Of a DNA stretch of 64,000 bases, positions 1 through 34,274 are shown piece by piece. The notes under the pieces are model-generated. The model was not told the origin of the DNA. It searched no databases and worked only from the letters and a program-made list of their open reading frames with translations. Position numbers and translations under genes: made by a program. The DNA comes from Dehalococcoidia bacterium. GTDB lineage: Bacteria; Chloroflexota; Dehalococcoidia; Bin125. The stretch covers positions 483,549 through 547,548 of the forward strand of contig OZ250140.1 in the NCBI GenBank assembly GCA_965237475.1, read 5' to 3'. The first letter of the stretch is position 1. Each line of letters starts with the position of its first letter.

Positions 1-4
1 CGTC

Positions 5-934
5 GTGATCGAGAACTACAGCGCTGGGGCCTTCGCCCGCATGGGCTTCCCCTGGGAGCACCTGCGGGAGATCAATCCGTCGCTGATCTACGTCTCCGTC
101 TCCGGCTTCGGCCACGTCGGCCGCGACGCCTCATATCGCACCTGGGGCCCCAGCGCCCAGGCCATCTCCGGCGCCACCGCCATGTCCGGGCTCCCGGACC
201 AGCCGCCCGCCGGCTGGGGCTTCTCCTACCTCGACCACAGCGCCGGCTACTACGCCGCGATCGCCGTCCTGATGGCCCTCCACCACCGCGCCCGCACCGG
301 CGAAGCCCAGCACGTCGACATGGCCCAGATCGAAGCCGGCATGGTCGTCAGCGCCGTCCCGATGCTCGACTACCAGGTCAACGGCCGCACCTACGAGCGC
401 ATCGGCAACCGCTCCCGCCACCCCGCCACGGCGCCCCACAACACCTATCCCTGCGCCGGCGATGACCGCTGGATCGCGATCGCCGTCGACGATGACGTCC
501 AATGGGCCGCGCTCTGCGACGTGCTCGGCCTCGACGCCCTCCGCGACGCTCCCCGCTTCGCGGAGATGGCCGCCCGCAAGGCTCACGAAGACGCCCTCGA
601 CCAGGCGATCGCCGCCGTCACCAGCGAGCGCGACCCCTTCGACCTGATGCTCCAGCTCCAGGAGCGCGGCGTCCCCGCCGGCGTCTGCCAGCGCAATGAC
701 GACAAGCAAGAGCGCGACCCTCAACTCGCCGACCGCGGCTTCTACCCCAGCGCCCCCCACGCCGAGCTCGGCGAGCACCGCTTCGAGGGCCTGCCCATGC
801 AGTTCTCGCACGCCCGCTGGCGGATCGACCGCGGCGCCCCCCTCATGGGCGAGCACAACCACGCCGTTCTCACTGAGCTGCTCGGCTACGACGACGAGGA
901 GCTCGCCACCATGCTCGCGGAGCTCGCCATCTGA
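5..934 (+). CDS. CoA transferase family III (CaiB/BaiF-like), 5' end lies outside the window
   Basis: 309-aa ORF. Family-III CoA-transferase-like sequence (SGFGHVGRDASYRTWGP...GFSYLDHSAGYY). The reading frame is open to the window edge. Its stop TGA overlaps the next gene's ATG (ATCTGATG). Confidence 0.75.
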   Translation: MIENYSAGAFARMGFPWEHLREINPSLIYVSVSGFGHVGRDASYRTWGPSAQAISGATAMSGLPDQPPAGWGFSYLDHSAGYYAAIAVLMALHHRARTGEAQHVDMAQIEAGMVVSAVPMLDYQVNGRTYERIGNRSRHPATAPHNTYPCAGDDRWIAIAVDDDVQWAALCDVLGLDALRDAPRFAEMAARKAHEDALDQAIAAVTSERDPFDLMLQLQERGVPAGVCQRNDDKQERDPQLADRGFYPSAPHAELGEHRFEGLPMQFSHARWRIDRGAPLMGEHNHAVLTELLGYDDEELATMLAELAI

Positions 935-2250
935 TGCCGCCCTCGAATACCGCCCCCCAGCCAGACCCATCCGGCCCCAGCGACGAGCTCCCCGGCCCCC
1001 GCGAAGGCCCACTCGAAACCCTGCGCGTGCTCGAGATCGGCGACCGCGGCGAGATCGCCGGCAAGCTGCTCGCCGACGCCGGCGCCGACGTCATCCGCAT
1101 CGAACCGCCCGGCGGCGGCCGCAGCCGCCATGTCGGCCCCTTCGTCAACGACGACCCCGGTCAGCCCTCCCTGCTCCACGCCAGCCGTAACACCAGTAAG
1201 CGCGCTGTCACCCTTGACGTCACCCAGCCCGCCGGCCTCGAGATCTGGCAACGGCTGGTCGGCCGCGTCGATGTCGTGATCGACGCCACCAGCCCCACCT
1301 TCCTCGACGCGCTCGGCGGCGGCTGGCAGTGGGCCGAAGCCCAGCCGGACCTGCACGCCTGCGTCTGGTGCAGCATCACCCCCTTCGGGCGCAGCGGCCC
1401 GCGCCGCGACTGGGCCGCCAACGACCTCGTCCAGCTCGCCCTCGGGGGCCCGATGATGAGCAACGGCTACGACGACCACCAGCTCCCCCCGATCCGCCCC
1501 GACGGCGAGCACAGCATCGCGATCAGCAACGAATACGCCGTCGCCGGCCTGCTCGCCGCCCTCTGGATGCGCGATGCCGGCCACCGCGGCCAGCTAGTCG
1601 ACGTCTCCATCCATGAGGCCGTCTCCGCCACCACCGAAGGCGCTTTTCCCAACTGGGAGTACTTCGGCCGCCTCGTCCAACGCCAGACCGGTCGTCACGC
1701 CTCCCCCGACCTCTCCGCCCCCTGGCAATACCTCGCTGCCGACGGCCAGCACGTCTGCCTGATCAGCGGTGGCCTCCCGCGCAGCGTCCCCGCCTGGTCC
1801 GGCCTGCTCGACTGGATGGACGAGCACGATGCCGCGGGCGACCTCCGCGATCCCCAATGGCAGGAGCTCCTCTACCGCGATCCCCGCTCCGACCCCGAAG
1901 CCCGCCTCCACGTCGCCGAGACGATCGGCGCCTTCGTCCAGCGCCTGCCCGCCGAAGAGGTCTACCGCCGCAGCCAGTCCCTCCGCTTCGCCTGGGGCGT
2001 CGTCCGCCGCCCTGAAGAGAACCTGGACGACCCGCACTGGGCCGACCGCGGCTTCTTCTGGGAAGGCGAATGCCCCGGCGTCGACCAGCCCGTCCGCTAC
2101 CCCGGCGCGCCCTACCGCTTTACCCGCTCCCCCGTCCGCCTGCGCCGCCGCCCCCCGCTGCTCGGCGAGCACAACCACGAGGTCTACGTCGGCGAGCTCG
2201 GCCTCAGCCGCGCCGAGCTCCGCGCCTACCTCGAAACGGGCGTCGTCTAG
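934..2250 (+). CDS. CoA transferase family III (CaiB/BaiF-like)
   Basis: 438-aa ORF. N-terminal 'LRVLEIGDRGEIAGKLLADAGADVIRIEPPGGG' glycine-rich CoA-transferase III signature. Translationally coupled to the upstream paralog. Confidence 0.8.
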   Translation: MPPSNTAPQPDPSGPSDELPGPREGPLETLRVLEIGDRGEIAGKLLADAGADVIRIEPPGGGRSRHVGPFVNDDPGQPSLLHASRNTSKRAVTLDVTQPAGLEIWQRLVGRVDVVIDATSPTFLDALGGGWQWAEAQPDLHACVWCSITPFGRSGPRRDWAANDLVQLALGGPMMSNGYDDHQLPPIRPDGEHSIAISNEYAVAGLLAALWMRDAGHRGQLVDVSIHEAVSATTEGAFPNWEYFGRLVQRQTGRHASPDLSAPWQYLAADGQHVCLISGGLPRSVPAWSGLLDWMDEHDAAGDLRDPQWQELLYRDPRSDPEARLHVAETIGAFVQRLPAEEVYRRSQSLRFAWGVVRRPEENLDDPHWADRGFFWEGECPGVDQPVRYPGAPYRFTRSPVRLRRRPPLLGEHNHEVYVGELGLSRAELRAYLETGVV

Positions 2251-2282
2251 CAGGCCGCTGGGAAAGTCGCTGCGCGGGCGCT

Positions 2283-2340
2283 CTCTACTCTCCCCCCGCC
2301 GAGCGGGGGGAGATGGAATCCTAGTTGCTCAGAGCATTCC
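2283..2340. repeat. MITE/REP-like element copy A (GC hairpin CTCTCCCCCCG-N5-CGGGGGGAGA plus IS5-IR-like arm)
   Basis: ctctccccccgccgagcggggggagatggaatcctagttgctcagagcattcctaaac. The arm, reverse-complemented, reads TTTAGGAATGCTCTGAGCAA, close to the IS left IR TTTAGGAACGCTCTGAACAA at 42807. Confidence 0.6.
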
Positions 2341-3416
2341 TAAACGGGTGCCAGCGCCGGCAGCTCGCAGGTGAAGGCGAAGTCGATGGCGGCGTGGACC
2401 GGATGCGTCGATCCGGCCAGGCCGCCGCTGAAGACGGCGGAATACATGCCGCCGCCACCGGCGACGATCAGCACGATGTCTTCGGGGCCGCGCAGTGCGG
2501 GGAGGTCGTCGTCGCCGTCGCCGTCGCGCATGGCCCGCTTCGTGGCCCAGCCTCGCATTACTGATCGGGGCGTCACGGCCAGCTCCGCGAGGCGGTCGCA
2601 GACGGCCTCGCGGCTGAGTCCGGCAGCGGCCAAGACACCGGCGTGGATGGGGTTGAGAGCGACGATCACGGGGCCGCGGCCGATCTGCGTGTTGTTGGCG
2701 CCGGCAATGGCGATGGACGCAGCGACGACGCGGAGGATGCGTTCGGGGGCTTGCGGATCGTCGACGTCGGTCGTCATCATCACGGAGTGCGGTGAGTCGA
2801 CGCCGACCAGGGTGACCGCGGACTGGTCGGCGTCGTAGCCGAAGGCGGTGTGTAGCGGCGGGAAGGGGCTCCCTTCCTCATCCTCGGCAAGGCAGCAGGT
2901 GAACTTGCCGGGCTGACCCAAGGCGGCCATGTCGCCGTGGCCGGGGCGGGCGCCGCCGATGTTCATCAGGCAGAGGCGCAGGGCGCGGCCGATGCTGGCG
3001 TTCGCGCGATGCCCCGGGCCGAGCGCACCCCAGCCGGAGGCGATCGGACCGCAGACCTCCCGCGCGGGCCCGTTGACGATGACCACCGGTCCCAGCGCGT
3101 GTGTCGTCGACTGCATGTTGTCGATGTCGAAGTCCGGATCTCCGACTGCCCGCACGGCGGCCAGGACGACAGGGAAGTGCTCGGGGCGGCAACCGGCCAT
3201 GACGGCGTTGATCGCGATCTTCTCGACCGTGGCCTGGCCGGCGCCGATCATGCCGACAATGACGTCCGGGTCGGTCTCTACCCCGGCGAGCAGGGCTTCC
3301 ACCCGCTCCTCAGTGGGGATCACGACCGGCAGGCCGTCGGTCCACTCGCGCATATGGAAGACCTCGAGCGCCGTCGCTTCGTCCGGGGCCTGGTGGCGCG
3401 TGGCGCGCAGGGTCAC
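2340..3416 (-). CDS. conserved hypothetical protein (family not recognised with confidence)
   Basis: 358-aa ORF with coding-like composition. Its ATG overlaps the stop of the upstream ORF (ATGA-type overlap at 3413-3416). Confidence 0.6.
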   Translation of the reverse strand: MTLRATRHQAPDEATALEVFHMREWTDGLPVVIPTEERVEALLAGVETDPDVIVGMIGAGQATVEKIAINAVMAGCRPEHFPVVLAAVRAVGDPDFDIDNMQSTTHALGPVVIVNGPAREVCGPIASGWGALGPGHRANASIGRALRLCLMNIGGARPGHGDMAALGQPGKFTCCLAEDEEGSPFPPLHTAFGYDADQSAVTLVGVDSPHSVMMTTDVDDPQAPERILRVVAASIAIAGANNTQIGRGPVIVALNPIHAGVLAAAGLSREAVCDRLAELAVTPRSVMRGWATKRAMRDGDGDDDLPALRGPEDIVLIVAGGGGMYSAVFSGGLAGSTHPVHAAIDFAFTCELPALAPV

Positions 3417-3943
3417 AGCTTGCGCCCCTCGAGCAGGTCGATGATGCGGGGCGCGGCCTCGCGGGCGACGCGGGCGAGGTTCTCGTCGCCGGTGCCCGAG
3501 CAGGGGTGAGGCAGGACGTAGCGGGGTATAGCGGGCATGCCCTCGGCCTGGGCGATGAAGGCGGCCAGCTCGACGAACGCCTCGGTAATGATGGCGACGG
3601 CGGGCAGGCCGGCCCTGGCGAAGATCGTTCCGTCACGCACGGTGCCGGATGTGCATCCGCCTCAATGCCCCCAGGCAGCTAAGACGGCATCGCACTCCTC
3701 GGTGATGGCGTCGATCAGCTCGCCGGTCACGGGCGCGACGTTGGGCTTTTGGTAGCGGAGCAAGGCGGCCTGCGGCAGCGCGCTCGCCAGTTCCGATTCC
3801 AAGTTGTCCATAAACTTGACGCCGTCGGGGAAGGCGTTCGCGAGCAGGCCGATCCGGATCGGGCCGCTGGTGTCCGCGAAGAGCTCGTAGGGCTCAACGG
3901 GGATGCCTCCCTCGGCAGTGGGATCGAGAAACGTGACAGTCAT
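3413..3943 (-). CDS. selenoprotein candidate (UxxC motif; two track ORFs joined by in-frame TGA at 3662-3664)
   Basis: ORFs 3662..3943 and 3413..3640 are in the same frame, separated only by TGA. Read-through gives ...DAVLAAWGH-U-GGCTSGTVRDGTIFARAGLPAVAI... (U-G-G-C). Perfect SD AGGAGG 6 nt before ATG 3943. Confidence 0.5.
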
Positions 3944-3964
3944 GATGGGCCTCCTGAGAGGATA

Positions 3965-4453
3965 CTAGGGGATCTCGGCCGGGCCTTCCCGATGGATGCC
4001 GAGCACCGCGAGCTGGCGGCCGCCGCCAACGAAGCACGCGACGCAGGTGGAGAGATCGAGGATCTCGTCGTCATCGAACAGCGCCCGCAGGCCCACCCAG
4101 TAGTCATCGTCCATCGACGAGTGGTCGTAGCAGTAACGCTCGGCGAAGTCGATCGCGGCGCGCTCCCGAGCCGTGTACAGCGGGCTCTCGCGATAGTTCG
4201 AGACCTGCGCGTATACCTCTTCGGTCAGATCGTTCTGCATCGCCGATGCAGAGCGGGTGGCCAGTCAAACAGAGCATTGATTGATCTCCGCAATGCGCAT
4301 GCGCACGACTTCCCGTTCGCGAACGGGAAGCTGGCTGTGCTGCAGGACCGCGCGGGAGAGCGCCGTCATCGCGGCCCCCATTTCGGGGCGCGCCTGGAAG
4401 AGACGGGCGCCTTCGGAGCCTTCACCCGGGGCGATGTCGATCCGTGCCATGTC
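3965..4453 (-). CDS. AhpD-like / carboxymuconolactone decarboxylase (CMD) family selenoprotein candidate (CxxU)
   Basis: ORFs 4265..4489 and 3965..4240 are in the same frame, separated by TGA 4265-4267. Read-through gives RIAEINQ-C-S-V-U-LATRS, aligning to the CMD/AhpD 'INGCxYC' redox motif. SD AAGGAG 6 nt before ATG 4451. Hairpin UCUGCAUC-GGC-GAUGCAGA 12 nt 3' of the UGA. Confidence 0.6.
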
Positions 4454-4593
4454 TTGCTCCTTGTTTCGAGACGATACTACCGGCGGCAACTCGCCGCCAC
4501 AACGCTCGGCCTTCCGCTACCCGCGCCCCTGGCCTGCTCGCCGGGCCCCGAGTTGGCGGCCATGCCGCAGCATGAGGGCGCCGCGGCGGCGGA

Positions 4594-5424
4594 CTAGCGC
4601 GCGCGGGTGCCGCCGTCGACGGGGAAGATGCCGCCCGTGATGTAGGAGGCGTCTTCGCTGGCGAGAAAGGCCACCATCGCTGCGATCTCATCGGCTTCGC
4701 CGTAGCGTCCCATCGGCGTCGACGCCGCGAGCCTCGTGTGTACCGCCTCCGGGTCATCCGGGTTAACGCCTCGCTCCATGGCTCGCATCATGCGCGTCTC
4801 AATGGGACCGGGACAGACGGCGTTGACACGGATGCCGTCGCCGACCAAGGCAATGGCCGCAGACTTCGTCAAACTCACGACCGCACTCTTAGTGGCCCCG
4901 TATGCCGCCGCTCGGGAACTGGCTTGGAGCCCGGCGACCGAGGCCGTGTTGATGATCGCGCCCCCGCCCGCTTCCTGCATCACTCGTCCCACAGCCTGCA
5001 AGCCGAAAAAGACGCCCTTGACGTTGACAGCGAAGACCCGATCGAATTCGTCTTCCGGGTAATCCAGCAGCGGTCCAACCCAGCCCTCGATCCCCGCGTT
5101 GTTGAAGAACACATCGATCTGCCCGAATTGGTCGAGTGCCGCCTGGACATACCCGTCGACCTCGCCGGCGACGGTGACATCGGCTGGATGGGTCGCGATT
5201 TGGCCGCCAGCCCGGTGTACCGCTGCCACCGTCTCGTCCAGTTCAGAGTCCGGCAAATCAACCGCCAGGATGCGGGCGCCCTCTGATGCGAAGCGGACGG
5301 CCGTCGCCCGGCCGATGCCCCCGGCGGCTCCCGTAATCACGACGACCCTTCCCTCGAATCGGTCTGCCATCGGCAATCCTCGCTCCTCGTTCAGGTGGCG
5401 GCGGAGCATACCAGCGGGCGCCAC
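4594..5424 (-). CDS. SDR family oxidoreductase (short-chain dehydrogenase/reductase)
   Basis: 276 aa. TGAAGGIGRATA Rossmann motif; typical SDR length and motifs. Confidence 0.85.
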   Translation of the reverse strand: MAPAGMLRRHLNEERGLPMADRFEGRVVVITGAAGGIGRATAVRFASEGARILAVDLPDSELDETVAAVHRAGGQIATHPADVTVAGEVDGYVQAALDQFGQIDVFFNNAGIEGWVGPLLDYPEDEFDRVFAVNVKGVFFGLQAVGRVMQEAGGGAIINTASVAGLQASSRAAAYGATKSAVVSLTKSAAIALVGDGIRVNAVCPGPIETRMMRAMERGVNPDDPEAVHTRLAASTPMGRYGEADEIAAMVAFLASEDASYITGGIFPVDGGTRAR

Positions 5425-5680
5425 GGTCAGTGCACGAGCAACTGATCGTGGGATTCATCGATCGGCGGCGGCGCGGTCCCGGTCGAGGCCGCGCCCGCCC
5501 CCGCGCGGGGAGCGGCGGCAGCGCGGGCGGGCAGGAGGAAGATCTGCCGACTCCAGAGTCCGCCTCGCGGTTCGCGTGCTGACCCCGCTCCGGCGACCCA
5601 GCGACCGAGTGGCTACCGATCTGACCGATCGGTTAGCCTCCGCAACCTTGGGGTTGCTGCAGGATTCTGGAGGCGCTGGC

Positions 5681-6646
5681 GTGGCCGACATTCAGGTGGA
5701 GATGGGGATTGGCCCCCCGACGGGAGCGGCATTCCCGTCGTGGGAGCTCCGCGATCAGGCAGGGCAGGCGATCGATCTGATGGCCGATCGGGCCGGCCGG
5801 GGCGCGCTGGTCGTGTTCCATCGCAGTGCCGCCTGGTGACCGTTCTGTAAGACGCAGCTCGTGGAGCTGCAGAAGGTGGCGGCGGACCTGGAGGCCGAGG
5901 GGATCGCCCTGTATGCGATCAGCTACGACCCTCCGGACGTGCTTGCCGGTTTCGCCGAGCGGCATGGCATCACCTATCCCCTGCTCAGCGACGCGGGCAG
6001 CGGACTGATTCGCGAGCTCGGCCTGCTCAACGAGGCGGCGAGCGGGCGCGTCGAGGGCATCCCGCATCCCGGCGTGTTCGTCCTCGACGCGGACGGCACG
6101 GTGGCCGAGAAACACTTCTACGAGAGCTACCGGGAGCGAGACACCGGCGCGGGGCTCCTGCAACACGTCCTCGGGATCGCCGCCACGCACGACGGGCCCC
6201 AGACGCAGGTGGCGTCCGATGTGGTCCAGCTCCAGGCTGAATTCGACGCATCCAGCTATACGTGGGGGCAGCGGCTCTGGCTGACCGTCAGTTTGACCAT
6301 CGCCCCCGGCTACCACGTCAACGGGCGTCCCATCCCGGTCGGTTACGTGCCGCTGGAGATCGAGATCGACCCACCGGATCGGGTGACGGTCGGCGCCCCG
6401 CGCTGGCCGACGCCGAAGCCGTTCCACGTGGAGGGGCTCGACGAGCAGTTGCACGTGTTCAGCGGCGAGATCCGCGTCTCCGTGCCGGTCACGTTCATGA
6501 CCGTGGACGCCGGCGAATTGGACGTGCGTGGACGCGTCACACTGCAGGCCTGCACGGCCAGGGAGTGCCTGTTGCCAGACTCGCTGAGCTTCGAGTTGCG
6601 GCTGCCGGAGACACCCCTGGTTGAGCGCCCCGCGCCGCGCAATTAG
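5681..6646 (+). CDS. thioredoxin-fold peroxiredoxin/redoxin-like selenoprotein candidate (W-U-P-F-C) fused to a DsbD-alpha-like domain
   Basis: The frame is continuous across TGA 5837-5839. Read-through gives ...GRGALVVFHRSAAW-U-PFCKTQLVELQK..., a UxxC where thioredoxin-fold proteins have WCxxC. GTG 5681 sits 7 nt after GGAGG. The C-terminal half carries 'QACTARECLLP', resembling the DsbD N-terminal domain Cys pair. Hairpin GCAGCUC-GUG-GAGCUGC 16 nt 3' of the UGA. Confidence 0.6.
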
Positions 6647-6747
6647 GGGTGTCGCGTGGGCGGACGAGTTCGCACACGATGGCGGGATCGTGGCGGCACG
6701 GGGATCTGTTGTTGTCGGGCGGAAGAGGCTGCCCCCCGCGCCGCCGC

Positions 6748-6806
6748 TAAGAATCCTCTGAACAAGTCGGATCCCCTCTCCCCCCGCAAAGCGGGGGGAG
6801 ATGTCA
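6748..6806. repeat. MITE/REP-like element copy B
   Basis: ctaagaatcctctgaacaagtcggatcccctctccccccgcaaagcggggggagatg. Near-identical to the reverse complement of copy C (20264-20320). Confidence 0.65.
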
Positions 6807-6917
6807 CGGAGTGACAGAGGGGGGCCGGTCCTGTCCCCTTAGATACCGCGACGGCAGTGAGTCGGCGCCGCAGCCCCCCTCTGCCCCCTGCCTGCGCAGG
6901 GGCAGGCTTCGGCCTCT

Positions 6918-6962
6918 CCCCCCGCTCCGCGGGGGGAGAGTCGTTCAGCGGCTTCCCAGGAA
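6918..6962. repeat. MITE/REP-like element copy B' (hairpin plus IS right-IR-like arm), preceded by an extra GC hairpin at about 6880-6912
   Basis: ctctccccccgctccgcggggggagagtcgttcagcggcttcccagg. The arm resembles the IS right IR GTTGTTCAGAGCCTTCCTAG. Confidence 0.5.
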
Positions 6963-7031
6963 CATGAGCGCCGCAGGCCGCGTACTAAACTGTGCACCCT
7001 GCACGCGCCGTGGCCGGAGAGGTGATCGGGG

Positions 7032-7244
7032 ATGAGCTTGTCCACGCACCCTCAGTTCCTCCAGACGCATCAGCCTGATGCCGGCTGCGCTGGCTGCTGG
7101 ACGGCGTTTCCCCGGCCATGCCGATGCGGCGGACAGATCCACGCGGAGCGCGGAGACGAGAACGAAAGCGGAGATGTCTGGCTCAGGCGATGGTGCTCGA
7201 AGTGCGGCGTCGATTGGGACGAGCCGATTCGCGCCAAATCGTAG
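7032..7244 (+). CDS. small Cys-rich (CxxC...CxC...CxxC) putative zinc-ribbon protein
   Basis: 70-aa ORF with high GC3. Motifs CAGCW, CRCGG, CSKCG. Confidence 0.25.
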   Translation: MSLSTHPQFLQTHQPDAGCAGCWTAFPRPCRCGGQIHAERGDENESGDVWLRRWCSKCGVDWDEPIRAKS

Positions 7245-7261: not shown

Positions 7262-7663
7262 TCAGTGCTGCGGTTGGAAGTAGGCGTGAGCCACAGCCTC
7301 ATCGGGCCAGAGGAAGTCGAATCCCGCTTTGAGCGCGTATTGGCGATCTAGGTCCTCGCGGTCGCCGATGTGCAGATATACGTCCGCTTCATGCTTGGCT
7401 TTCACGTCCGGCAGCATGTGTTTGGAGACAACAAAGTCGACCTCGATGTCGTGCGCGGCCCAGAGGGCCCGTTGACCGCTCAGCGTGCGATCCGAACAGC
7501 TCCCGATCAGGAAGCCCTTTTCGCGTACCCGGCGGACCATGTCCATCGTCAAGACGCCAGGCGGATCGCCGACTTCTAACGTGCCGTCGATGTCGAAGCT
7601 GATCAGAACCACCACGGGCCACTCCTCGTCTTCGACCGTGACTAGTCGGGGCTGGCGCTCCAC
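7262..7663 (-). CDS. HAD superfamily hydrolase
   Basis: 133 aa. 'ISFDIDGTL' HAD motif I. Overlaps the upstream thiolase end, so operon-like. Confidence 0.7.
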   Translation of the reverse strand: MERQPRLVTVEDEEWPVVVLISFDIDGTLEVGDPPGVLTMDMVRRVREKGFLIGSCSDRTLSGQRALWAAHDIEVDFVVSKHMLPDVKAKHEADVYLHIGDREDLDRQYALKAGFDFLWPDEAVAHAYFQPQH

Positions 7664-9018
7664 ACGGTGTAGTTCCCCCCGAGCGGCATCGGCCCACCCG
7701 AGACCGCCACTTCCGGCTTGACGCCAGTGACCTGTCTCGCGCCCGCGCGGCCTTGCAGCTGTTGAATGCAGTCCGTGTGCATCCAGACCCGGCTGCGGCC
7801 ACTGCCGACGTTGCCCCCGCTGGGGGAGACCGGGTTGGGGCCTTCGATACTGATGTCGGTCTGGTAGAAGTCCAGTGCTTCCCCGAACTGGATCCCGCGA
7901 TAGCCCAGGCCTTCCAGGTGGAATTGATGGAAGAGCGAGAAGCCGTCGTACATGTTTTCGAAGGAGAGATCGTCCGCGCTGATCCCCGCGCCCTCGTAGA
8001 TCTTGCGAGCGGTGCGCGCAGTGTCGGCTTCCACCTCATCGAGCGTGGGAAGCAAGCTGCGCGACCGGGTGTTACTGGACGCGTGATTGAGGATGTAGAC
8101 CGGCTTCTGGTTCATGTCCGCCGCCCGCTCGGCCGTGGAAAAGAGGTAGGCGCCGGACATCATGATCGGAATGTCGTTGTCGAACAGGTTGGCGGGCTTC
8201 GCGATCCAGCGCGCCGCGAGATAGTCCTCTGCTCCAAGTTCCTCGGGCCGGTGCTGCGCCCAGTAGCCCTCCGGAAACATCAGCCCGTTGCGGCGCGAAT
8301 TCTCCATGAACGGCGCCATCATTTCGTGGCTCTTGCCGTACTTCCGGCAATACTCCGCGAATTGCAGGGCCGTGCTGTACGAGGCGGGAGCGCCCCATAG
8401 TTGGGTCATGGCGGCGGTGCCAGGCAGGGCGTCCCCGGCGTTGGCCCCACCCTGGTAATAGCGGCCCTCGAAGTTGTGCCAGCTCTTGACCACGAGGCAA
8501 GTGTGGGTCAGACCGTCACCCACGGCCTGAGCCGTCACGTTGAGCGCGTTCGACATGCAGCCGGGGCCGTACATCGTGAACTGGACGTTGCTGAGCTCCG
8601 GCATGTTCGCCAGCAGCCACTCGGTACTGATCTTCGCGATGCCGTCGAGCGGGTCCTCCGTCTGCTGGAAGCTCTGGATCACGTCCAGAGGAAGCGGCTT
8701 GCCCTCCTCCCAGAACGCGCCGGTCGTGGTGTCGCGGACGACCACCAGACCATCGATCTGATCGGGCGCGACGCCGGCGTCGTCGATCGCCTGCCGCAGC
8801 GCCTGAATGCTGATCGCGCCGACGCACGTCTCCGGGCGGCCGTCCCAGCGCCGGTTTGTCGGCGCGTGGCCGACGCCGACGGCGGCGACCTTGCCGCGGT
8901 GCTCCCAAATACCAAGCCCTTCGTCGTTGCGGTACATCGCAACCGGTGCAGTTGGTGTCGTCACTACGCGTACTCCTTGCGGCATGGGCTGTTCAGGTGG
9001 ATCGGGATCAGCCAGCAA
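7642..9018 (-). CDS. thiolase-like protein (SCP-x / lipid-transfer type)
   Basis: 458 aa. Thiolase-fold length. Paired with a downstream-overlapping DUF35 OB-fold protein, the classic arrangement. Confidence 0.7.
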   Translation of the reverse strand: MLADPDPPEQPMPQGVRVVTTPTAPVAMYRNDEGLGIWEHRGKVAAVGVGHAPTNRRWDGRPETCVGAISIQALRQAIDDAGVAPDQIDGLVVVRDTTTGAFWEEGKPLPLDVIQSFQQTEDPLDGIAKISTEWLLANMPELSNVQFTMYGPGCMSNALNVTAQAVGDGLTHTCLVVKSWHNFEGRYYQGGANAGDALPGTAAMTQLWGAPASYSTALQFAEYCRKYGKSHEMMAPFMENSRRNGLMFPEGYWAQHRPEELGAEDYLAARWIAKPANLFDNDIPIMMSGAYLFSTAERAADMNQKPVYILNHASSNTRSRSLLPTLDEVEADTARTARKIYEGAGISADDLSFENMYDGFSLFHQFHLEGLGYRGIQFGEALDFYQTDISIEGPNPVSPSGGNVGSGRSRVWMHTDCIQQLQGRAGARQVTGVKPEVAVSGGPMPLGGNYTVWSASPD

Positions 9019-9421
9019 TCACGCGCCACTCGGGCACGAGCTGACCGTTCGCCGTGGGCTCGAAGATCACCTCGACGGCCGCGCCGAGCGGCACGTCGTC
9101 GACCGGCGTGCCGGGCAGGTGCGAGAACATCTGGATCTCCGGGTCGTCCTCCAGCATGATCACGGCAACGTTGAAGGGCTGATTCTCTTGGAGCAGCCGC
9201 ACGGGACAGTCATGCACGACGCCGTAGTTGTAGATCGTGCCACGCCCGCTGACGGGCTTCCACTCGAGTGGATCGCTGGCGCCGCACTGGCGGCAGGCAT
9301 CCGCCGGCGGATGCTGCAACCGATTGCAGGCGCGGCAGTTCTGGATCACCAGGCGCTCTTCGTTCGCGGCGTCCCAGAACGGCTGACTGAAGCTGTCCGG
9401 CAGCACGCCTTGCTTGGTCAT
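9008..9421 (-). CDS. Zn-ribbon/OB-fold protein (DUF35 family)
   Basis: 137 aa. CRAC...CRQC zinc ribbon followed by an OB-fold-like segment. Overlaps the thiolase start by 11 nt. Confidence 0.7.
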   Translation of the reverse strand: MTKQGVLPDSFSQPFWDAANEERLVIQNCRACNRLQHPPADACRQCGASDPLEWKPVSGRGTIYNYGVVHDCPVRLLQENQPFNVAVIMLEDDPEIQMFSHLPGTPVDDVPLGAAVEVIFEPTANGQLVPEWRVIAG

Positions 9422-12273: not shown

Positions 12274-15360
<3,087 letters not shown>

Positions 15361-15389
15361 GTCCTCGAGTGAGGCTTCATCGAGGAGGT

Positions 15390-16169
15390 TTATTTTGCTG
15401 ACAGGATCTGTTCCACTTCGTCCGGGCGCGACCAGAGGGCCACCTCGGAATGCTGCTCCACAAGGGCGAAGTCCTCGTCACGCCACACATCTTGCGTGTC
15501 GTCGAATAGTGAGACGAACACCAGGTCCGACCGGTCGGCCTTCAGGTTGCTGAGGTCGACGCAGCCTGCCAGCACATGCTCCGCGATGCGATGTGTCGCG
15601 CCGCGCGTGCCGGTGCTGAGTAGGAAGATCATCGATGTGCGCGACGCGGAGCGGACGCGATAGTCCACAGTCCATTCGCGCGCCGAGCGCCCCACGGCTT
15701 TGATCTGACGCTCGACACTGAATCTTCGGCCGCGCAGCCACTCATCCACATCATCTGCGATGGACGCCGCACCGCGCGAGCGGAACGTGAACCAGATGTC
15801 GGTGACTCGCACCGCGCCGAGCGCTACCCGATTGACAGCATCTGCAACGGCTGCAACACCCTCGCAGCGCGCCACCAACCGGCCGCGATCAAACTCCAGG
15901 CCTTGAGTCCGGCAGATATCGGTGATCAATGAGCGTTGATTTTGTGAGAGGTGTTCGGCGATCGACTGCATCCGCAGCCATCCAGTCGCGTCGCCGTGGT
16001 CCGTGACGACATGCTCGACACCCCGGTCCAGCACGAACACGTCGACGGCGCCACCGTCGGGATACGTTAGGGGCGTTCGGACGCGGACTCCCTCGCTTGG
16101 CGCCGGAGCACATTCGTAGATGGCGGGGAGCGTGATTCGCAAGGAGTCGCACAAGAGGTCTGGTGTCAT
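15390..16169 (-). CDS. hypothetical protein, possibly DUF1828/DUF1829-type (from memory)
   Basis: About 260 aa. Its ATG overlaps the stop of the upstream ORF (ATGA at 16166-16169). Sits between hsdM and hsdR. Confidence 0.45.
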
Positions 16170-16651
16170 AACGCGAGCTCCGCCTGCCACTCAGGATTAT
16201 GCAGGATACCCCAATGAATGATCTTCGTCTCCGCGCAAAACTGCTCCCAGACCTCGAGAGGCTGATCCCACGTGGCTGTGATGTCCCCGGGCTTGTAGGC
16301 CCACTCGGCCTTGAACTCTTCCGTCCAGCGGTGCTTGTGGGTGCCGTGCGGGCAGTCACAGGCGACGCGCCGCCCGCGTTTCCGTGGGCACGACGGGTTG
16401 TGGTGGAGAAGGTCGCCAAGATCGAGGCCGACGATGCGGCGGGCCCGCCGGTGAACCAGTGTGAAAGTCAGCTTGCCAGAATGCGGGTTCCACCATCCCT
16501 CAACGAACAACGGCCAGTCGGCTTCTGACTGCACGCCGGCGCGGAACCCCTGCGCCGCCGAGTGGAACTCGTCTGACGTCCAGACGATATCGCCGGTGAT
16601 CCGTTTCGTGTCATCGGCGAGGAGCGATTCGAATTCTTGCTGGGTGAGCAT
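16166..16651 (-). CDS. hypothetical protein with a Cys/His cluster (HHNPSCPRKRGRRVACDCPHGTHKHRW)
   Basis: 161-aa ORF, translationally coupled to the downstream gene. Possible zinc-binding or His-Me-finger-like nuclease motif (speculative). Confidence 0.45.
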   Translation of the reverse strand: MLTQQEFESLLADDTKRITGDIVWTSDEFHSAAQGFRAGVQSEADWPLFVEGWWNPHSGKLTFTLVHRRARRIVGLDLGDLLHHNPSCPRKRGRRVACDCPHGTHKHRWTEEFKAEWAYKPGDITATWDQPLEVWEQFCAETKIIHWGILHNPEWQAELAL

Positions 16652-16782
16652 GGTAGAAGGCTCGGTCCGCGGGCCGGCGTCGCTCGCCAGGGGTCAGCTC
16701 GCGAGCCGCGCAGCTAGGGCTGCCTGTCGCGCGATCGATGGGGCGCAGTGGTTAGGCGAGCGTAACCTGTGCGGCATTCCAC

Positions 16783-17409
16783 TCAGGCGGCCGATCCGTT
16801 CGCTTGTGCTGGTTGCTCGACCATCGTCCTTAGGTCGCTGATCATCCATTCGAGCATCTCGAGATTGCGAAGTGTGGTCGTCTCGTTGCCCACGCTCCGT
16901 CGAATCGTCAATAAGAACTCGCTGAAGGTCGTGACAAATTCCATTCCATTCTCTAGAGTGGGCTGGCTGGAGTCGATCGCCGAAGAGGTCGCATTCTCCA
17001 TCGCGTAGGCGAACTGCATCAAGTTGTTGAACGCACGGATGACTTCGTCGCTCGCAAACAGCGATAGCTTGAACGCAGCCTGACGATACTCGATCGACTG
17101 CATCACTTCGGCGCCACTCTTCGCCTTGCGACCCTTCCGCCGATTCGGTTCGCCGGAGTCACCCAAGCCCTCGCTGAATATGGCGATAAACGGCGCGAGA
17201 ATGTTGTTGTAGACGTCGACACGCTCGTCCCTGATCTCCTCTTCGAGCTTCTGTGCCCTCTGGCGAGCCGCAGCTTCCTTCGCCTGAGCCGATTCGATCC
17301 GTCGTTGGAACACCCACAGTATGCCGGAAGCGAGGACGATCAGAATCGGCGTGACAATCGATCCGATCGCGGTGATGATCTCGAGGGTGGTCGGCGCGCC
17401 GGGATCCAT
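16783..17409 (-). CDS. hypothetical single-pass membrane protein with a coiled-coil; lower GC than surroundings
   Basis: TM helix LEIITAIGSIVTPILIVLASGILWVF followed by a charged coiled-coil region (QAKEAAARQRAQKLEEEIRDERVD). The local sequence is AT-richer than its neighbours. Confidence 0.5.
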   Translation of the reverse strand: MDPGAPTTLEIITAIGSIVTPILIVLASGILWVFQRRIESAQAKEAAARQRAQKLEEEIRDERVDVYNNILAPFIAIFSEGLGDSGEPNRRKGRKAKSGAEVMQSIEYRQAAFKLSLFASDEVIRAFNNLMQFAYAMENATSSAIDSSQPTLENGMEFVTTFSEFLLTIRRSVGNETTTLRNLEMLEWMISDLRTMVEQPAQANGSAA

Positions 17410-17557
17410 CAGGTCGCTCCCTCCCCGATTCTTGTGCCGAATGTGGCGGCCGATCCGAGTCCAATCGAAATGAGTCGGGGCAAGAGTGTGTCCCAAGTGG
17501 TGTCATGTGCGCCCGATGGACGGCACGGATGCAGAGCCTGTGAGTGCGGTCGCGGGA

Positions 17558-19027
<1,470 letters not shown>

Positions 19028-20956: not shown

Positions 20957-22378
20957 GTGCCATCGTTGGCCGCGCAGTCAACGACCTCGGCAACGCCGGA
21001 TGCGCAGGGTAGGGCACACCGGACCATGAGTCGCGACACTTCAGTCCCTGGGGATGATCAAGAGCAGAGCCTGATGGCAAGCAGCTCTGCAGAGCCCGAA
21101 TTGCTGCTCTCAGTCCCGCCCCGCAGCAGGACACGCGCGGCGAGACGCGGGACGCCCGAGGCGGCGCTGCGCGAAATCCCGGACGGCGCCCGAATTGTCA
21201 TTCCGCCGCTCGGCGGGACTCCTCTTGGCCTGCTTGCCGAGCTGGACAGCCTCCGTCACGGCTGGACGCAGCTCGAGCTCGCCAGCGGACTGCTGCTGGA
21301 ACCGATCGCGCCGCTGGACCATCCCGGCGACCCGTTTAGATTCATCACGTATCAAACCAGCGCTGCATATCGTCCCGCAGAGGAAGCGGGAGTGCTCGAC
21401 CATATCCCGACGTTCTACGTTCAGGTGTCAGAGCTGTTCGAACCCGACAGCGCGCTGCCCGCCGACGCCGTCCTGGTCCAGGTCAGCCCGCCCAACGAGG
21501 AGGCCCGGTACTCGCTTGGCGCCTCGGTCGGCGGCATCCTCAACGCGCTTCGAACGGCGCCACTGGTGATCGGACAGGTCAATCCCCGCGTCCCCTACAC
21601 CTACGGCGCGTCGGAGCTGCTCGCCGAAGACTTCGACTGGCTGGTCGAGCTCGATGGGCGGATTCCCGAGGTCAACCGACCGCAGCCGGGCCCGATCGAG
21701 CAGCAAATCGCCGAGCACGTTGTCTCGCTGATCCGGGACGGCGCCACGCTGCAGTTTGGGATCGGCGCTGTGCCCGAGGCGATCATGGGCCTGCTCTCCA
21801 GCCGCTCCGACCTCGGTATTCATTCGGGCCTGTTCAGCGACGGCCTGATCGAGCTGCTCGAGAGCGGAGCCATCACGGGCGCGCGCAAAGGCACGGCGCC
21901 CGGCGTGATCGTCGTCACGGAAGCGATCGGCACGGCCAACCTGTACCGCTGGCTGGACTACAACAACCGCGTCCTGTTCGCTCCCGCGAGCTACACCCAC
22001 TCACCGATCGTGCTGTCGCAGCAACACCAGCTTGTCGCAATCAACTCCGCGATCGAAGTCGGGCTCGATGGCAGCGTCAATGCCGAAACGGTGCGCGGTC
22101 GCCGGATCTCCGGGCCGGGCGGTCAGCCCGACTTCGCGGCATCGGCGGTGATCCACGGCGGCTTGAATGTCATCGCCTTGCCATCGACAGCGGCGCGCGG
22201 TCGTGTGTCACGAATCGTCAAGGCGTTGCCGCCGGGTGCGGCGGTGACGACGCCGCCATATTTCGCCGACATCGTCGTCACAGAGCACGGCGCGGCTCAT
22301 CTCCGCGGCCGCACGCTTGCGCAGCGCGCTGCTGCCCTCCGCACCATTGCTCACCCCGACTTTCGATCCGATCTGTGA
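20957..22378 (+). CDS. acetyl-CoA hydrolase/transferase family protein (CoA-transferase family I, Cat1/4-hydroxybutyrate CoA-transferase-like); true start probably downstream (21026 or later)
   Basis: Motifs LVQVSPPNEEARYSLGASVGGI, GLDGSVNAETVRGRRISGPGGQPDF. Confidence 0.75.
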   Translation: MPSLAAQSTTSATPDAQGRAHRTMSRDTSVPGDDQEQSLMASSSAEPELLLSVPPRSRTRAARRGTPEAALREIPDGARIVIPPLGGTPLGLLAELDSLRHGWTQLELASGLLLEPIAPLDHPGDPFRFITYQTSAAYRPAEEAGVLDHIPTFYVQVSELFEPDSALPADAVLVQVSPPNEEARYSLGASVGGILNALRTAPLVIGQVNPRVPYTYGASELLAEDFDWLVELDGRIPEVNRPQPGPIEQQIAEHVVSLIRDGATLQFGIGAVPEAIMGLLSSRSDLGIHSGLFSDGLIELLESGAITGARKGTAPGVIVVTEAIGTANLYRWLDYNNRVLFAPASYTHSPIVLSQQHQLVAINSAIEVGLDGSVNAETVRGRRISGPGGQPDFAASAVIHGGLNVIALPSTAARGRVSRIVKALPPGAAVTTPPYFADIVVTEHGAAHLRGRTLAQRAAALRTIAHPDFRSDL

Positions 22379-33986: not shown

Positions 33987-34274
33987 CTTGAATCAACACG
34001 CTGCCTAGAACGGCATCGAACAGGCAACCCTGCAGCTACCCGCGATGCGGCCCAGCGCCCGGCTGCTGAAGTCGATCGCAACACGATGCGCCGCCGCCCG
34101 CTCGCCGCCATCCCGCTCAAGCACCAGAGTGCGCTAGAGTGGCCGAGCAACAAACACGCCTAATGGTATCTGCGCTCGACTACCGGACAACATCGCTGAC
34201 TGTCGACGACGGTCGGAACACTTCATCACCGATGACAACTGCGTGCCGGGGCAGCGTCAGAACGAAGGAGCAGC

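What the first reader, a model, noticed from the sequence alone, without database searches (positions are those of the whole stretch)
2340..6646. Selenoprotein-rich redox locus: three UGA-Sec candidates within 3.3 kb, two in one operon, plus a shared TAGTATC-N-TCTC element upstream of both ribosome-binding sites
The minus-strand operon SDR -> AhpD-like(Sec) -> UxxC protein(Sec) -> conserved hypothetical is divergent from the Prx-like(Sec)-DsbDalpha gene. Three independent in-frame TGAs at canonical redox-Cys positions are unlikely by chance. Both minus-strand Sec-gene starts are preceded by the same motif (CCTAGTATCCTCTCAGGAGG..ATG at 3943; GGTAGTATCGTCTCGAAACAAGGAG..ATG at 4451), a possible shared translational or regulatory element. 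No selA/B/C/D is present in this window.
Basis: partly seen in the sequence, partly recalled or inferred. Interest (0 to 1): 0.6.

Follow-up and report, generated by a model that had tools for sequence, protein, structure and literature searches.

The report
Three known selenoprotein genes, one locus
Three neighbouring genes in an uncultured Dehalococcoidia (Chloroflexota) bacterium really do encode selenocysteine with in-frame UGA codons, but all three belong to described selenoprotein families, and the "shared motif" is best read as a promoter -10 box in one copy and a stop codon plus spacer in the other.

Summary
Three in-frame TGAs sit at redox-Cys positions. The genes are a Prx-like/DsbD-alpha fusion (WUPFC, TGA 5837-5839), an AhpD-like CMD protein (CSVU, TGA 4265-4267) and a UGSC-family protein (UGGC, TGA 3662-3664).

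All three families are published selenoprotein families. The TGAs are conserved in relatives, Cys forms exist, and each TGA is followed 13-17 nt later by a hairpin that is frozen at synonymous sites.

The UGSC gene is the best supported. TGA occupies the Sec position in 77 of 80 related loci from several phyla, followed by an invariant block CCGGCACCGTGCGTGACGG. That block is relaxed in the Cys forms.

TAGTATCNTCTC occurs only twice in 64 kb, but it is not a shared element. Copy 1 is the -10 hexamer of a conserved TTGTGA-N17-TAGCAT promoter. Copy 2 is the AhpD stop codon plus a poorly conserved spacer. One relative (L004) lost AhpD exactly between the two 7-nt repeats.

The extra result is that UGSC is always coupled to the downstream 358-aa protein, which has no Pfam family. 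The evidence is adjacency, a 4-nt overlap and fusion proteins in both orders. The pair looks like a two-part seleno-enzyme of unknown chemistry.

No Sec machinery was found in the window, though gene coverage was incomplete.

The parts
2340..3416 (-). 358-aa conserved protein (the 'partner') with no Pfam or NCBIfam family. Its GTG start at 3416 overlaps the UGSC stop as GTGA.
   Evidence: ORF. No family hit. More than 6,000 homologues and 5,873 clusters at 50% identity. Directly downstream of UGSC in about 79 of 80 loci. Fused to UGSC in single polypeptides.
3413..3943 (-). UGSC-family selenoprotein gene (176 codons, motif U-G-G-C).
   Evidence: PF24696 at 141 bits and NF041046 at 105 bits. 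Translation. The model of a Cys homologue has a flavodoxin-like alpha/beta fold, pLDDT 95.
3662..3664 (-). UGA-Sec codon of the UGSC gene.
   Evidence: TGA at this codon in 77 of 80 related loci, TGC in 1 and TAG in 1. Cys (CGSC) in full-length homologues.
3630..3648 (-). Putative bacterial SECIS hairpin of UGSC, CCG-G-CAC[CGUGC]GUG-A-CGG, starting 13 nt after the UGA.
   Evidence: RNAalifold consensus on 67 distinct sequences, with one C-G to U-A compensatory pair. Third-codon positions have zero entropy inside the hairpin and 0.8-2.0 bits outside it. Cys forms use ACG/CGC/GAT instead. The single-sequence fold energy is not significant, z = -0.04.
3956..3967 (-). Motif copy 2, TAGTATCCTCTC. 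It consists of the AhpD-like stop codon TAG (3967-3965) plus the 21-nt spacer before the UGSC Shine-Dalgarno AGGAGG.
   Evidence: Poorly conserved in relatives.
3965..4450 (-). AhpD-like (carboxymuconolactone decarboxylase family) selenoprotein gene, 161 codons, motif C-S-V-U.
   Evidence: PF02627 at 50.7 bits. The Sec residue aligns with the second Cys of the CxxC motif in the solved homologues 2gmy, 2ijc and 2o4d.
4265..4267 (-). UGA-Sec codon of the AhpD-like gene.
   Evidence: TGA in all 13 loci that carry the gene.
4234..4252 (-). Putative SECIS hairpin of AhpD-like, UCUGCAUC[GGC]GAUGCAGA, starting 12 nt after the UGA (15 nt after its first base).
   Evidence: Fold (z = -1.7). The 22-nt block is invariant, including 7 third-codon positions, in 13 distinct sequences while the flanks vary.
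4468..4479 (-). Motif copy 1, TAGTATCGTCTC. Its first six bases (4479-4474) form the -10 hexamer of the promoter for AhpD-like, UGSC and the partner.
   Evidence: TAGCAT/TAGTAT is invariant at 5 of 6 positions across 14 sequences, while the following bases vary.
4497..4502 (-). -35-like hexamer TTGTGG (TTGTGA in most relatives), 17 nt upstream of the -10 hexamer.
   Evidence: Conserved hexamer and fixed 17-nt spacing with a variable spacer sequence. It falls below the consensus threshold of the promoter scan.
4594..5370 (-). Short-chain dehydrogenase/reductase gene, 143 nt upstream of AhpD-like.
   Evidence: PF13561 and PF00106. The SDR-to-AhpD spacing ranges from 74 to 651 nt in relatives. 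An SDR lies near the module in 27 of 80 loci.
5681..6646 (+). Prx-like (AhpC/TSA, motif W-U-P-F-C) selenoprotein fused to a DsbD-alpha-like domain carrying a C-x4-C pair. No signal peptide. The alternative start is 5702.
   Evidence: PF00578 at 93 bits and PF11412 at 50.5 bits. Start analysis.
5837..5839 (+). UGA-Sec codon of the Prx-like gene.
   Evidence: TGA in L001-L003 and in a 30%-identical homologue in L043.
5854..5870 (+). Putative SECIS hairpin of Prx-like, GCAGCUC[GUG]GAGCUGC, starting 14 nt after the UGA (17 nt after its first base).
   Evidence: Fold (z = -1.1). L043 has a hairpin of different sequence, GCGGAGC[UGUAU]GCUCUGC, at the same offset.

Best explanation
The locus carries three genuine selenoprotein genes from three already-described bacterial selenoprotein families.

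Sec decoding. Each gene has a UGA at a catalytic Cys position of a UxxC or CxxU redox motif. Each UGA is followed 13-17 nt later by a short G+C-rich hairpin with G/U in the loop. This is the bacterial SECIS arrangement, which recruits SelB with Sec-tRNA(Sec). The Sec machinery must lie elsewhere in the genome.

Transcription. AhpD-like, UGSC and the 358-aa protein most likely form one unit. It is driven by a sigma-70-type promoter, TTGTGG-N17-TAGTAT at 4502-4474, lying between SDR and AhpD-like. UGSC and the 358-aa gene are translationally coupled through a GTGA stop/start overlap.

Functional core. The ancient core is the UGSC + 358-aa pair. I infer that it is a two-part enzyme. The small flavodoxin-like UGSC subunit would supply a selenol/thiol (U-x-x-C) redox centre. 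The larger subunit, rich in conserved Cys and His, would be the catalytic part. Its chemistry is unknown.

Later additions. AhpD-like (CxxU) is a clade-specific insertion into this operon. The Prx-like/DsbD-alpha gene is a recent neighbour.

The motif. The two TAGTATC copies are not one regulatory element. One is the promoter -10 box. The other is the AhpD stop codon plus spacer. Together they mark the edges of the AhpD cassette, and they served as 7-nt microhomology for a clean AhpD deletion in one relative.

Shown versus inferred. Shown: TGA positions, family membership, conservation, synonymous-site freezing, gene coupling and fusions, and the deletion junction. Inferred: actual Sec insertion, promoter activity, a physical UGSC-partner complex, and the chemistry.
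For: Families. Literature listing UGSC-containing (UxxC), AhpD-like (CxxU) and Prx-like (UxxC) as selenoprotein families: PMC2398784 Table 2 and PMC13188914.

Sec aligned to Cys.

TGA conservation: UGSC 77 of 80 loci across Chloroflexota, Acidimicrobiia, Gamma- and Alphaproteobacteria and Myxococcota; AhpD-like 13 of 13; Prx-like 5 of 5.

SECIS: RNAalifold structure with one compensatory pair. Codons GGC, ACC, GTG and CGT are invariant in 67 of 67 Sec forms and GAC in 66 of 67. In contrast, 4 distinct Cys forms all use CGC for Arg, and at each of the ACC, GAC and GGC positions 3 of the 4 differ. AhpD and Prx hairpins.

Promoter.

Deletion junction in L004 exactly at TAGCATC, with L004 nested inside an AhpD-positive clade.

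UGSC-partner coupling: adjacency; 4-nt overlap in 48 of 77 loci; the same pairing for Cys forms, including cultured Novosphingobium bradum; fusion proteins UGSC-partner, partner-UGSC and AhpC/TSA-partner.

Selenoprotein-rich Dehalococcoidia MAGs (46-49 selenoproteins each) are reported in BSepDB, PMC13326102.
Against: No selA, selB, selC or selD is in the window. The rest of the source genome could not be searched.

Single-sequence hairpin energies are not better than shuffled G+C-rich sequence: z = -1.1, -1.7 and -0.04. The SECIS evidence is therefore purely comparative, and most stem positions are invariant rather than covarying.

The window promoter matches the consensus at only 3/6 + 4/6 positions and was not called by the scan. 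No transcription start data exist.

The UGSC score against NCBIfam NF041046 is 105 bits, below the curated 125-bit cutoff.

The partner model is only moderately confident (pLDDT 76.5). Its best structural matches have TM of only about 0.2-0.3 (class I fumarate hydratase at E = 6e-5, Toblerone-fold hydrolases), so no chemistry can be assigned.

For AhpD-like and Prx-like the comparative sample is small and closely related.
Confidence: 0.8

Rival explanations
1. The TAGTATC-N-TCTC repeat is a genuine shared cis element. Possibilities are two -10 boxes (a main promoter and an internal one), a regulator-binding site, or a translational signal that co-ordinates the two Sec genes.
For: There are only two copies in 64 kb against 0.22 expected. 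Both copies sit just upstream of a Shine-Dalgarno sequence. In L006, L007 and L017 both copies read TAGCATC. The stop-side copy keeps a TAnnnT pattern in most relatives.
Against: The TAG of copy 2 is the AhpD stop codon. In relatives that copy becomes TAA or TGA and varies at most other positions. I read no -35-like hexamer and no TG extension upstream of copy 2 (my reading). The TCTC half is not conserved upstream of AhpD. The distances to the start codon differ, 12 versus 17 nt. Nothing similar precedes the third Sec gene, Prx-like. UGSC genes in other phyla have unrelated upstream sequences.
Confidence: 0.1
2. The three selenoproteins form one integrated redox relay: Prx-like/DsbD-alpha to AhpD-like to UGSC to the partner. 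On this view the clustering is functional rather than incidental.
For: All three carry UxxC or CxxU motifs and lie within 3.3 kb. Operon clustering of Prx-like and AhpD-like selenoprotein genes has been noted in metagenomes (PMC13188914). An AhpC/TSA-partner fusion protein exists (P0315).
Against: The Prx-like gene is next to the operon only in L001 and L003, and it lies 1.9 kb further away in L002. It is absent within 6 kb in all other relatives. AhpD-like is restricted to one clade and was deleted cleanly or partially in L004, L013, L016 and L021 without loss of UGSC + partner. In other phyla the module stands alone or sits with CoA-transferases and SDRs.
Confidence: 0.15
3. The TGAs are ordinary stops: split pseudogenes, sequencing errors, or a reassigned genetic code.
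For: No Sec machinery is in the window. L010 carries TAG at the Sec position plus a TGG-to-TGA change, and L014 has a truncated UGSC. Decay therefore does occur in some relatives.
Against: TGA sits at exactly the catalytic-Cys codon in 77 independent assemblies from several phyla, and coding conservation continues on both sides of it. The hairpins are frozen at synonymous sites. Cys-form orthologues exist. TGA is also used as a normal stop in the same genes; for example, the UGSC stop at 3415-3413 is TGA. This argues against a genome-wide reassignment of TGA.
Confidence: 0.02

Closest known systems
UGSC-containing selenoprotein family (Pfam PF24696, NCBIfam NF041046; Zhang and Gladyshev, GOS 2008; first noted in Hyphomonas neptunium)
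   Same: Strong Pfam match. Sec lies in a U-G-x-C motif following G-H. The length is about 175 aa. Sec forms far outnumber Cys forms: 77 to 1 here, against 255 to 21 in GOS. A fusion to an unnamed conserved domain, 'Unknown_1', was reported in 2008.
   Different: This clade has U-G-G-C rather than U-G-S-C. The NCBIfam score is below the curated cutoff. The literature guessed a thioredoxin-like fold, but the confident model here is a flavodoxin/Rossmann-like alpha/beta/alpha sandwich with TM about 0.5 to flavodoxin-like domains. I could not verify that 'Unknown_1' is the 358-aa partner, because the published alignment is an image.
AhpD-like selenoproteins (CxxU; COG2128/TIGR01926 and PF02627 types)
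   Same: CMD fold family. The Sec residue replaces the second Cys of the CxxC motif, exactly the published CxxU pattern.
   Different: All specific NCBIfam models score below their cutoffs. Here the gene is a clade-specific insert into a UGSC operon.
Prx-like thiol:disulfide oxidoreductase selenoproteins (PF00578, UxxC) and DsbD-alpha (PF11412)
   Same: AhpC/TSA domain with a W-U-x-x-C motif. The second Cys aligns with the peroxidatic Cys of AhpE. The C-terminal domain matches DsbD_N and carries a Cys pair.
   Different: The two domains are fused in one soluble protein that lacks a signal peptide or membrane segment. The Cys pair is C-x4-C rather than the C-x5-C of E. coli DsbD-alpha (from memory, not tested here).
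Bacterial SECIS element (E. coli fdhF type)
   Same: A stem-loop starts roughly 11-17 nt after the UGA and has G/U in the apical loop. It lies inside the coding sequence and constrains synonymous sites.
   Different: The sequences are unrelated to fdhF. The UGSC element is unusually uniform: a 14-nt core is identical in 67 distinct sequences from several phyla. SelB binding was not tested.

Membership tests
Bacterial selenoprotein gene (UGA-Sec) | The in-frame UGA aligns with a catalytic Cys of homologues. | tested here: met
   UGSC: CGSC in 30+ Cys-form homologues. AhpD-like: second Cys of CxxC in PDB homologues. Prx-like: first position of the WCxxC-type motif, 3 residues before the Cys that aligns with the peroxidatic Cys of AhpE.
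Bacterial selenoprotein gene (UGA-Sec) | The UGA and the coding sequence on both sides of it are conserved in relatives. | tested here: met
   UGSC 77 of 80 loci; AhpD-like 13 of 13; Prx-like 5 of 5, including a 30%-identical homologue.
Bacterial selenoprotein gene (UGA-Sec) | A SECIS stem-loop lies shortly downstream of the UGA. | tested here: met
   Hairpins start 13-17 nt after each UGA. Synonymous sites are frozen in Sec forms and relaxed in Cys forms. Caveats: the fold energies alone are not significant, and only one pair shows a compensatory change.
Bacterial selenoprotein gene (UGA-Sec) | selA, selB, selC and selD are present in the genome. | not testable with these tools
   None found in the 64-kb window. 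The rest of the genome is not available. Literature reports 46-49 selenoproteins in Dehalococcoidia MAGs of the same naming series (PMC13326102).
Bacterial selenoprotein gene (UGA-Sec) | Selenium is actually incorporated into the protein. | not testable with these tools
   Requires 75Se labelling or mass spectrometry.
UGSC family (PF24696 / NF041046) | The profile match reaches the curated cutoff. | tested here: inconclusive
   Pfam 141.3 bits against a cutoff of 25, so met. NCBIfam equivalog 105.4 bits against a cutoff of 125, so not met. The query had Cys substituted for Sec.
UGSC family (PF24696 / NF041046) | The U-G-S-C motif. | tested here: not met
   The window and its closest relatives have U-G-G-C. 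More distant members in the same alignment have U-G-S-C. This is a conservative variation of the third residue. U and C are in register.
AhpD-like / CMD family selenoprotein | The CMD domain, with CxxU in place of CxxC. | tested here: met
   PF02627 at 50.7 bits against a cutoff of 23. C-S-V-U aligns with C-A-F-C and C-A-Y-C of 2gmy, 2ijc and 2o4d.
Prx-like thiol:disulfide oxidoreductase selenoprotein | The AhpC/TSA domain with a UxxC motif. | tested here: met
   PF00578 at 93 bits against a cutoff of 26. Motif W-U-P-F-C.
Sigma-70-type promoter (for motif copy 1) | -35 and -10 hexamers with 16-18 nt spacing. | tested here: inconclusive
   Not called by the consensus scan in the window, where the match is 7 of 12. 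However, TTGTGA-N17-TAGCAT is conserved in 13 of the 14 aligned sequences while the spacer varies.
Sigma-70-type promoter (for motif copy 1) | A mapped transcription start downstream of the -10 hexamer. | not testable with these tools
   Requires 5' RACE or differential RNA-seq.

The most novel reading that the evidence does not exclude
UGSC and the 358-aa protein with no Pfam family are the two obligate parts of a widespread, uncharacterised seleno-enzyme.

The partner family has about 5,900 clusters at 50% identity. The pair is found in Chloroflexota, Actinomycetota, Proteobacteria and Myxococcota. The partner depends on a dedicated selenol/thiol redox module, which is occasionally replaced by an AhpC/TSA domain. 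It often sits among CoA-transferase, SDR and enoyl-CoA hydratase genes.

The SECIS of UGSC is nearly identical at the nucleotide level across phyla.

The chemistry could be new. One possibility is a reductive or hydro-lyase step on an organic acid or acyl-CoA.
Probability: 0.5. Interest if true: 0.55.

Novelty: new member of a known kind. Interest (0 to 1): 0.3.

Why it matters
As a selenoprotein locus it adds little. All three families were catalogued between 2005 and 2008, and Dehalococcoidia MAGs are already listed among the most selenoprotein-rich bacteria.

The analysis is useful in three ways.

1. It removes a false lead. The repeated motif is not a Sec-specific control element.

2. It shows concretely how a selenoprotein gene is gained and lost inside an operon. 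In one relative the loss was a clean deletion between 7-nt repeats.

3. It puts one of the most abundant aquatic selenoprotein families of unknown function (UGSC) into a testable frame. UGSC never travels alone. It is translationally coupled, and sometimes fused, to one specific uncharacterised protein family. Both should therefore be expressed and assayed together.

The Cys-form pair in the cultured Novosphingobium bradum gives an experimental entry point that does not need Sec machinery.

Tried and rejected
- Rfam found nothing relevant, either at gathering thresholds on the whole window or at a permissive E-value on 2200-7100.
- ARAGORN found no tRNA or tRNA-Sec.
- The consensus promoter/terminator scan found no promoter and only two weak terminator-like sites.
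- Single-sequence folding z-scores of the three post-UGA segments were not significant, so I did not use fold energy as evidence.
- The partner protein had no Pfam or NCBIfam match even at E <= 5 across 15 members.
- The only PDB sequence hit for the partner was a marginal transcriptional-regulator match. PDB fold matches were weak, with TM 0.2-0.3. I therefore rejected naming it a fumarate-hydratase-like or Toblerone-fold enzyme.
- The UGSC profile found no PDB sequence relative and no second Pfam family. From memory, UGSC resembles GrdB/PrdB (U-x-x-C followed by a similar helix). I could not test this, so it remains only a lead.
- The first UGSC homologue search, with a single sequence, returned only 4 hits, because Sec forms are truncated by gene callers. 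An alignment query fixed this.
- A GC3-based scan for further TGA-interrupted genes in the window gave only noise beyond the three known cases.
- An exact-sequence look-up of the window's partner protein found no public record.
- The inverted repeat GGCGGC-GAGTT-GCCGCC in the promoter spacer is not conserved in relatives, so I rejected it as an operator.
- The CoA-transferase association (32 of 80 loci) is suggestive. These genes are very abundant in these genomes, with five in this window alone, so I did not treat it as strong evidence.

Full report
**1. The observation**

The region was read directly and translated in the correct frames.

- Plus strand: a gene runs from GTG 5681 (or ATG 5702) to the stop at 6644-6646. 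It has an in-frame TGA at 5837-5839 in the context ...HRSAAW-TGA-PFCKTQL.
- Minus strand: a gene runs from ATG 4450 to TAG 3967-3965, with TGA at 4267-4265 (...AEINQCSV-TGA-LATRSA).
- Minus strand: the next gene starts 21 nt downstream. It runs from ATG 3943 to TGA 3415-3413, with an internal TGA at 3664-3662 (...LAAWGH-TGA-GGCTSGTVRD).
- An SDR gene (5370-4594) lies upstream of these two, and a 358-codon ORF (3416-2340) lies downstream.
- The motif TAGTATCNTCTC occurs at 3956-3967 and 4468-4479 on the minus strand and nowhere else in 64 kb, even with one mismatch. Chance expectation is 0.22, and 2 of 100 shuffles reached two matches.

**2. What the genes are**

With Cys substituted for Sec, Pfam gives the following:

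| Gene | Pfam match |
|---|---|
| Plus-strand gene | AhpC-TSA (93 bits) plus DsbD_N (50.5 bits) |
| Second gene | CMD/AhpD-like (50.7 bits) |
| Third gene | UGSC family PF24696 (141 bits) |
| SDR | adh_short_C2 |
| 358-aa protein | nothing |

NCBIfam agrees in kind: 'UGSC family (seleno)protein', 'YciW-related (seleno)protein', 'SelL-related redox protein'. All of these score below the equivalog cutoffs.

The Sec positions are canonical.
- In AhpD-like, C-S-V-U aligns with the CxxC of the solved homologues 2gmy, 2ijc and 2o4d.
- In the Prx-like domain, W-U-P-F-C places Sec three residues before the Cys that aligns with the peroxidatic Cys of AhpE. This is the published 'Prx-like UxxC' pattern.
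- Full-length UGSC homologues carry C-G-S-C at the same place.

All three families appear in the published prokaryotic selenoproteome with exactly these motifs. The sources are GOS Table 2 (PMC2398784) and the 2026 review (PMC13188914).

**3. Comparative evidence that the TGAs are read as Sec**

The TGA-free 358-aa protein has more than 6,000 homologues. I used it to fetch 80 loci from species-representative genomes. The closest are Dehalococcoidia/Chloroflexota MAGs at 84-94% identity, many from sponge-type assemblies. More distant ones come from Acidimicrobiia, Gamma- and Alphaproteobacteria and Myxococcota.

tblastn shows a UGSC gene immediately upstream in essentially every locus. The Sec codon is TGA in 77 loci, TGC in one (L037) and TAG in one apparently decaying copy (L010). 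AhpD-like carries TGA in all 13 loci that have it. Prx-like carries TGA in L001-L003 and in a 30%-identical homologue in L043.

**4. SECIS elements**

Thirteen nucleotides after the UGSC UGA lies CCGGCACCGUGCGUGACGG. RNAalifold folds it as (((.(((.....))).))) on 67 distinct sequences. One C-G pair is replaced by U-A in two sequences.

The four codons GGC-ACC-GTG-CGT are identical in all 67 sequences and GAC in 66 of 67. Neighbouring third-codon positions carry 0.8-2.0 bits of entropy. Four distinct Cys-form genes all use CGC for Arg and mostly ACG and GAT, and they lose the closing GG. That contrast is what an RNA signal needed only for Sec decoding predicts.

The AhpD-like hairpin is UCUGCAUC[GGC]GAUGCAGA. 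Its 22-nt block is invariant, apart from one loop base in one sequence, across 13 distinct sequences while the flanks vary.

The Prx-like hairpin is GCAGCUC[GUG]GAGCUGC. In L043 it is replaced by a different hairpin at the same offset.

Fold energies of the single window sequences do not differ from shuffled G+C-rich controls. The case therefore rests on comparison, not thermodynamics.

**5. The shared motif**

I aligned the 80 nt upstream of AhpD-like from 13 loci. Two islands are conserved: TTGTGA (TTGTGG in the window) and, exactly 17 nt later, TAGCAT (TAGTAT in the window). The spacer between them and the bases after them vary. This is the signature of a -35/-10 promoter. As a consensus match it is weak, and the scan did not call it.

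The second copy begins with the AhpD-like stop codon. In relatives it reads TAGTTTC, TAGTGTC, TAACCTT, TAGCGTT, TAACATC, TAGCCTC or TGATGCC. I could find no -35-like partner for it.

L006, L007 and L017 have TAGCATC at both sites. Their close relative L004 lacks AhpD-like altogether. In L004 the promoter runs TTGTGA-N17-TAGCATC straight into CTCCCAGGAGG-N7-ATG of UGSC.

A neighbour-joining tree of the partner protein places L004 inside the AhpD-positive clade. The simplest reading is a deletion between the two 7-nt direct repeats. L013, L016 and L021 keep only about 60 nt of the AhpD 3' end, which is a second, independent loss.

The repeat is therefore real, but it marks the two edges of the AhpD cassette rather than a Sec-specific control element.

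**6. The conserved core: UGSC plus the 358-aa protein**

- The UGSC stop and the partner start overlap by 4 nt (ATGA or GTGA) in 48 of 77 loci. In most of the rest they are within a few nucleotides.
- Cys-form UGSC genes are followed by the same protein. One example is in cultured Novosphingobium bradum.
- A profile search of 1.84 billion representatives finds 5,873 clusters of the partner family.
- Among these are single polypeptides with UGSC at the N-terminus (P0263, P0275, P0283).
- Others begin with the post-Sec half of UGSC (P0259, P0267). They look like Sec-form fusions whose gene call starts after the UGA.
- P0260 has the reverse order and ends just before the Sec position.
- P0315 has an AhpC/TSA (CxxS) domain in place of UGSC.
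- The 2008 GOS paper mentioned a 'UGSC/Unknown_1' fusion. This is probably the same domain, but the published alignment is an image and I could not check it.

A confident model of a Cys-form UGSC (pLDDT 95) is a five-stranded alpha/beta/alpha sandwich. The redox motif lies at the start of helix 3. It resembles flavodoxin-like domains at TM about 0.5 and not the thioredoxin fold suggested in the literature.

The partner model has pLDDT 76.5 and pTM 0.80. It has no convincing structural relative. The best matches are class I fumarate hydratase at E = 6e-5 and TM 0.23, and Toblerone-fold hydrolases. Its invariant residues include four Cys and four His.

Frequent neighbours are CoA-transferase family III (32 of 80 loci), SDR (27 of 80) and enoyl-CoA hydratase (9 of 80). 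CoA-transferases are very abundant in these genomes, with five in this window, so this association is weak evidence.

**7. How it most likely works**

*Shown.* There are three UGA codons at catalytic positions of known redox motifs. Each is followed by a conserved hairpin. A conserved -35/-10 pair lies ahead of AhpD-like. AhpD-like and UGSC are separated by 21 nt with a strong Shine-Dalgarno sequence. UGSC and the partner overlap by 4 nt.

*Inferred.* SelB with Sec-tRNA(Sec) reads the three UGAs. One mRNA starting near 4467 encodes AhpD-like, UGSC and the partner. UGSC docks on the partner as its selenol/thiol redox subunit. AhpD-like (CxxU) is an accessory reductant acquired by this clade. 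The Prx-like/DsbD-alpha protein is an independent intramolecular thiol-selenol relay that happens to be adjacent.

**8. Comparison with known systems, and novelty**

Every gene is a member or near-member of a described selenoprotein family. Dehalococcoidia MAGs of the same naming series are already listed with 46-49 selenoproteins each (PMC13326102). Clustering of Prx-like and AhpD-like selenoprotein genes has also been noted. The locus is therefore a new member of known kinds.

The part not in the literature I could read is the strict, translationally coupled and sometimes fused pairing of UGSC with one specific uncharacterised protein family. The near-identity of the UGSC SECIS across phyla also appears to be unreported there.

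**9. Limits**

The Sec machinery could not be looked for outside the window. My survey inside the window was also incomplete: 25 proteins were scanned against Pfam and the remaining stretches were only read as raw ORFs. No expression data exist. The promoter is inferred from conservation alone. The AhpD-like and Prx-like samples are small and closely related. The partner's chemistry is unknown.

**Verdict**

The selenoprotein interpretation is supported. The shared-element interpretation is not supported. Overall interest is modest, at 0.3. The UGSC-partner module is a worthwhile lead.

Noticed in passing
window 2289-2342, 6748-6801, 6914-6941: There are three copies of a G+C-rich palindromic element, CTCCCCCCGC-N3-GCGGGGGGAG. 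They are the only three in the 64-kb window, and they bracket the five-gene locus. Copies 1 and 2 form a 54-nt inverted repeat (81% complementary) 4.4 kb apart. The same hairpin occurs at non-orthologous intergenic sites in L001, L008, L009, L011, L013 and L021. It therefore looks like a dispersed REP/MITE-like element or a bidirectional terminator of this clade.
   Followed up: partly
proteins P0315, P0253, P0255: The partner domain is also found fused to an AhpC/TSA (CxxS) domain in place of UGSC (P0315). It also occurs as roughly 715-740-aa proteins with two or three partner-domain matches (P0253, P0255).
   Followed up: partly
L010:2759-3283 and L014:5777-5998: L010 has TAG at the Sec codon and a TGG-to-TGA change two codons earlier. 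L014 has only the C-terminal part of UGSC and a frameshifted SDR. These could be decaying copies or assembly errors in relatives.
   Followed up: no
protein P0126: A database UGSC protein has Trp at the Sec position (GHWGSC). The likely cause is a gene call made with a genetic code that reads TGA as Trp, which hides another Sec form.
   Followed up: no
window 2-2250, 20957-22378, 31924-33123, 37475-38692, 7642-9421: The window is rich in acyl-CoA metabolism genes. It has four CoA-transferase family III genes, an acetyl-CoA hydrolase/transferase, and a thiolase-like protein with a ChsH2-type zinc-ribbon/OB partner.
   Followed up: partly
window 12274-19027: A type I restriction-modification system is present, with HsdR at 12274-15360 and HsdM at 17558-19027. 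DUF1828 and other small genes lie between them.
   Followed up: no
window 24331-31683 (+) and 52069-59268 (-): There are two very large ORFs of about 2,450 and 2,399 codons. They were not analysed.
   Followed up: no
window 42885-43826: A DDE transposase gene (DDE_Tnp_1 plus DUF772) lies in a stretch of atypical coding statistics. A ParA-like ORF is at 34236-35114.
   Followed up: no
window 4480-4496 (-): A perfect 6-bp inverted repeat, GGCGGC-GAGTT-GCCGCC, fills the spacer between the -35 and -10 hexamers. It is present in L001 but not conserved in the other relatives.
   Followed up: yes
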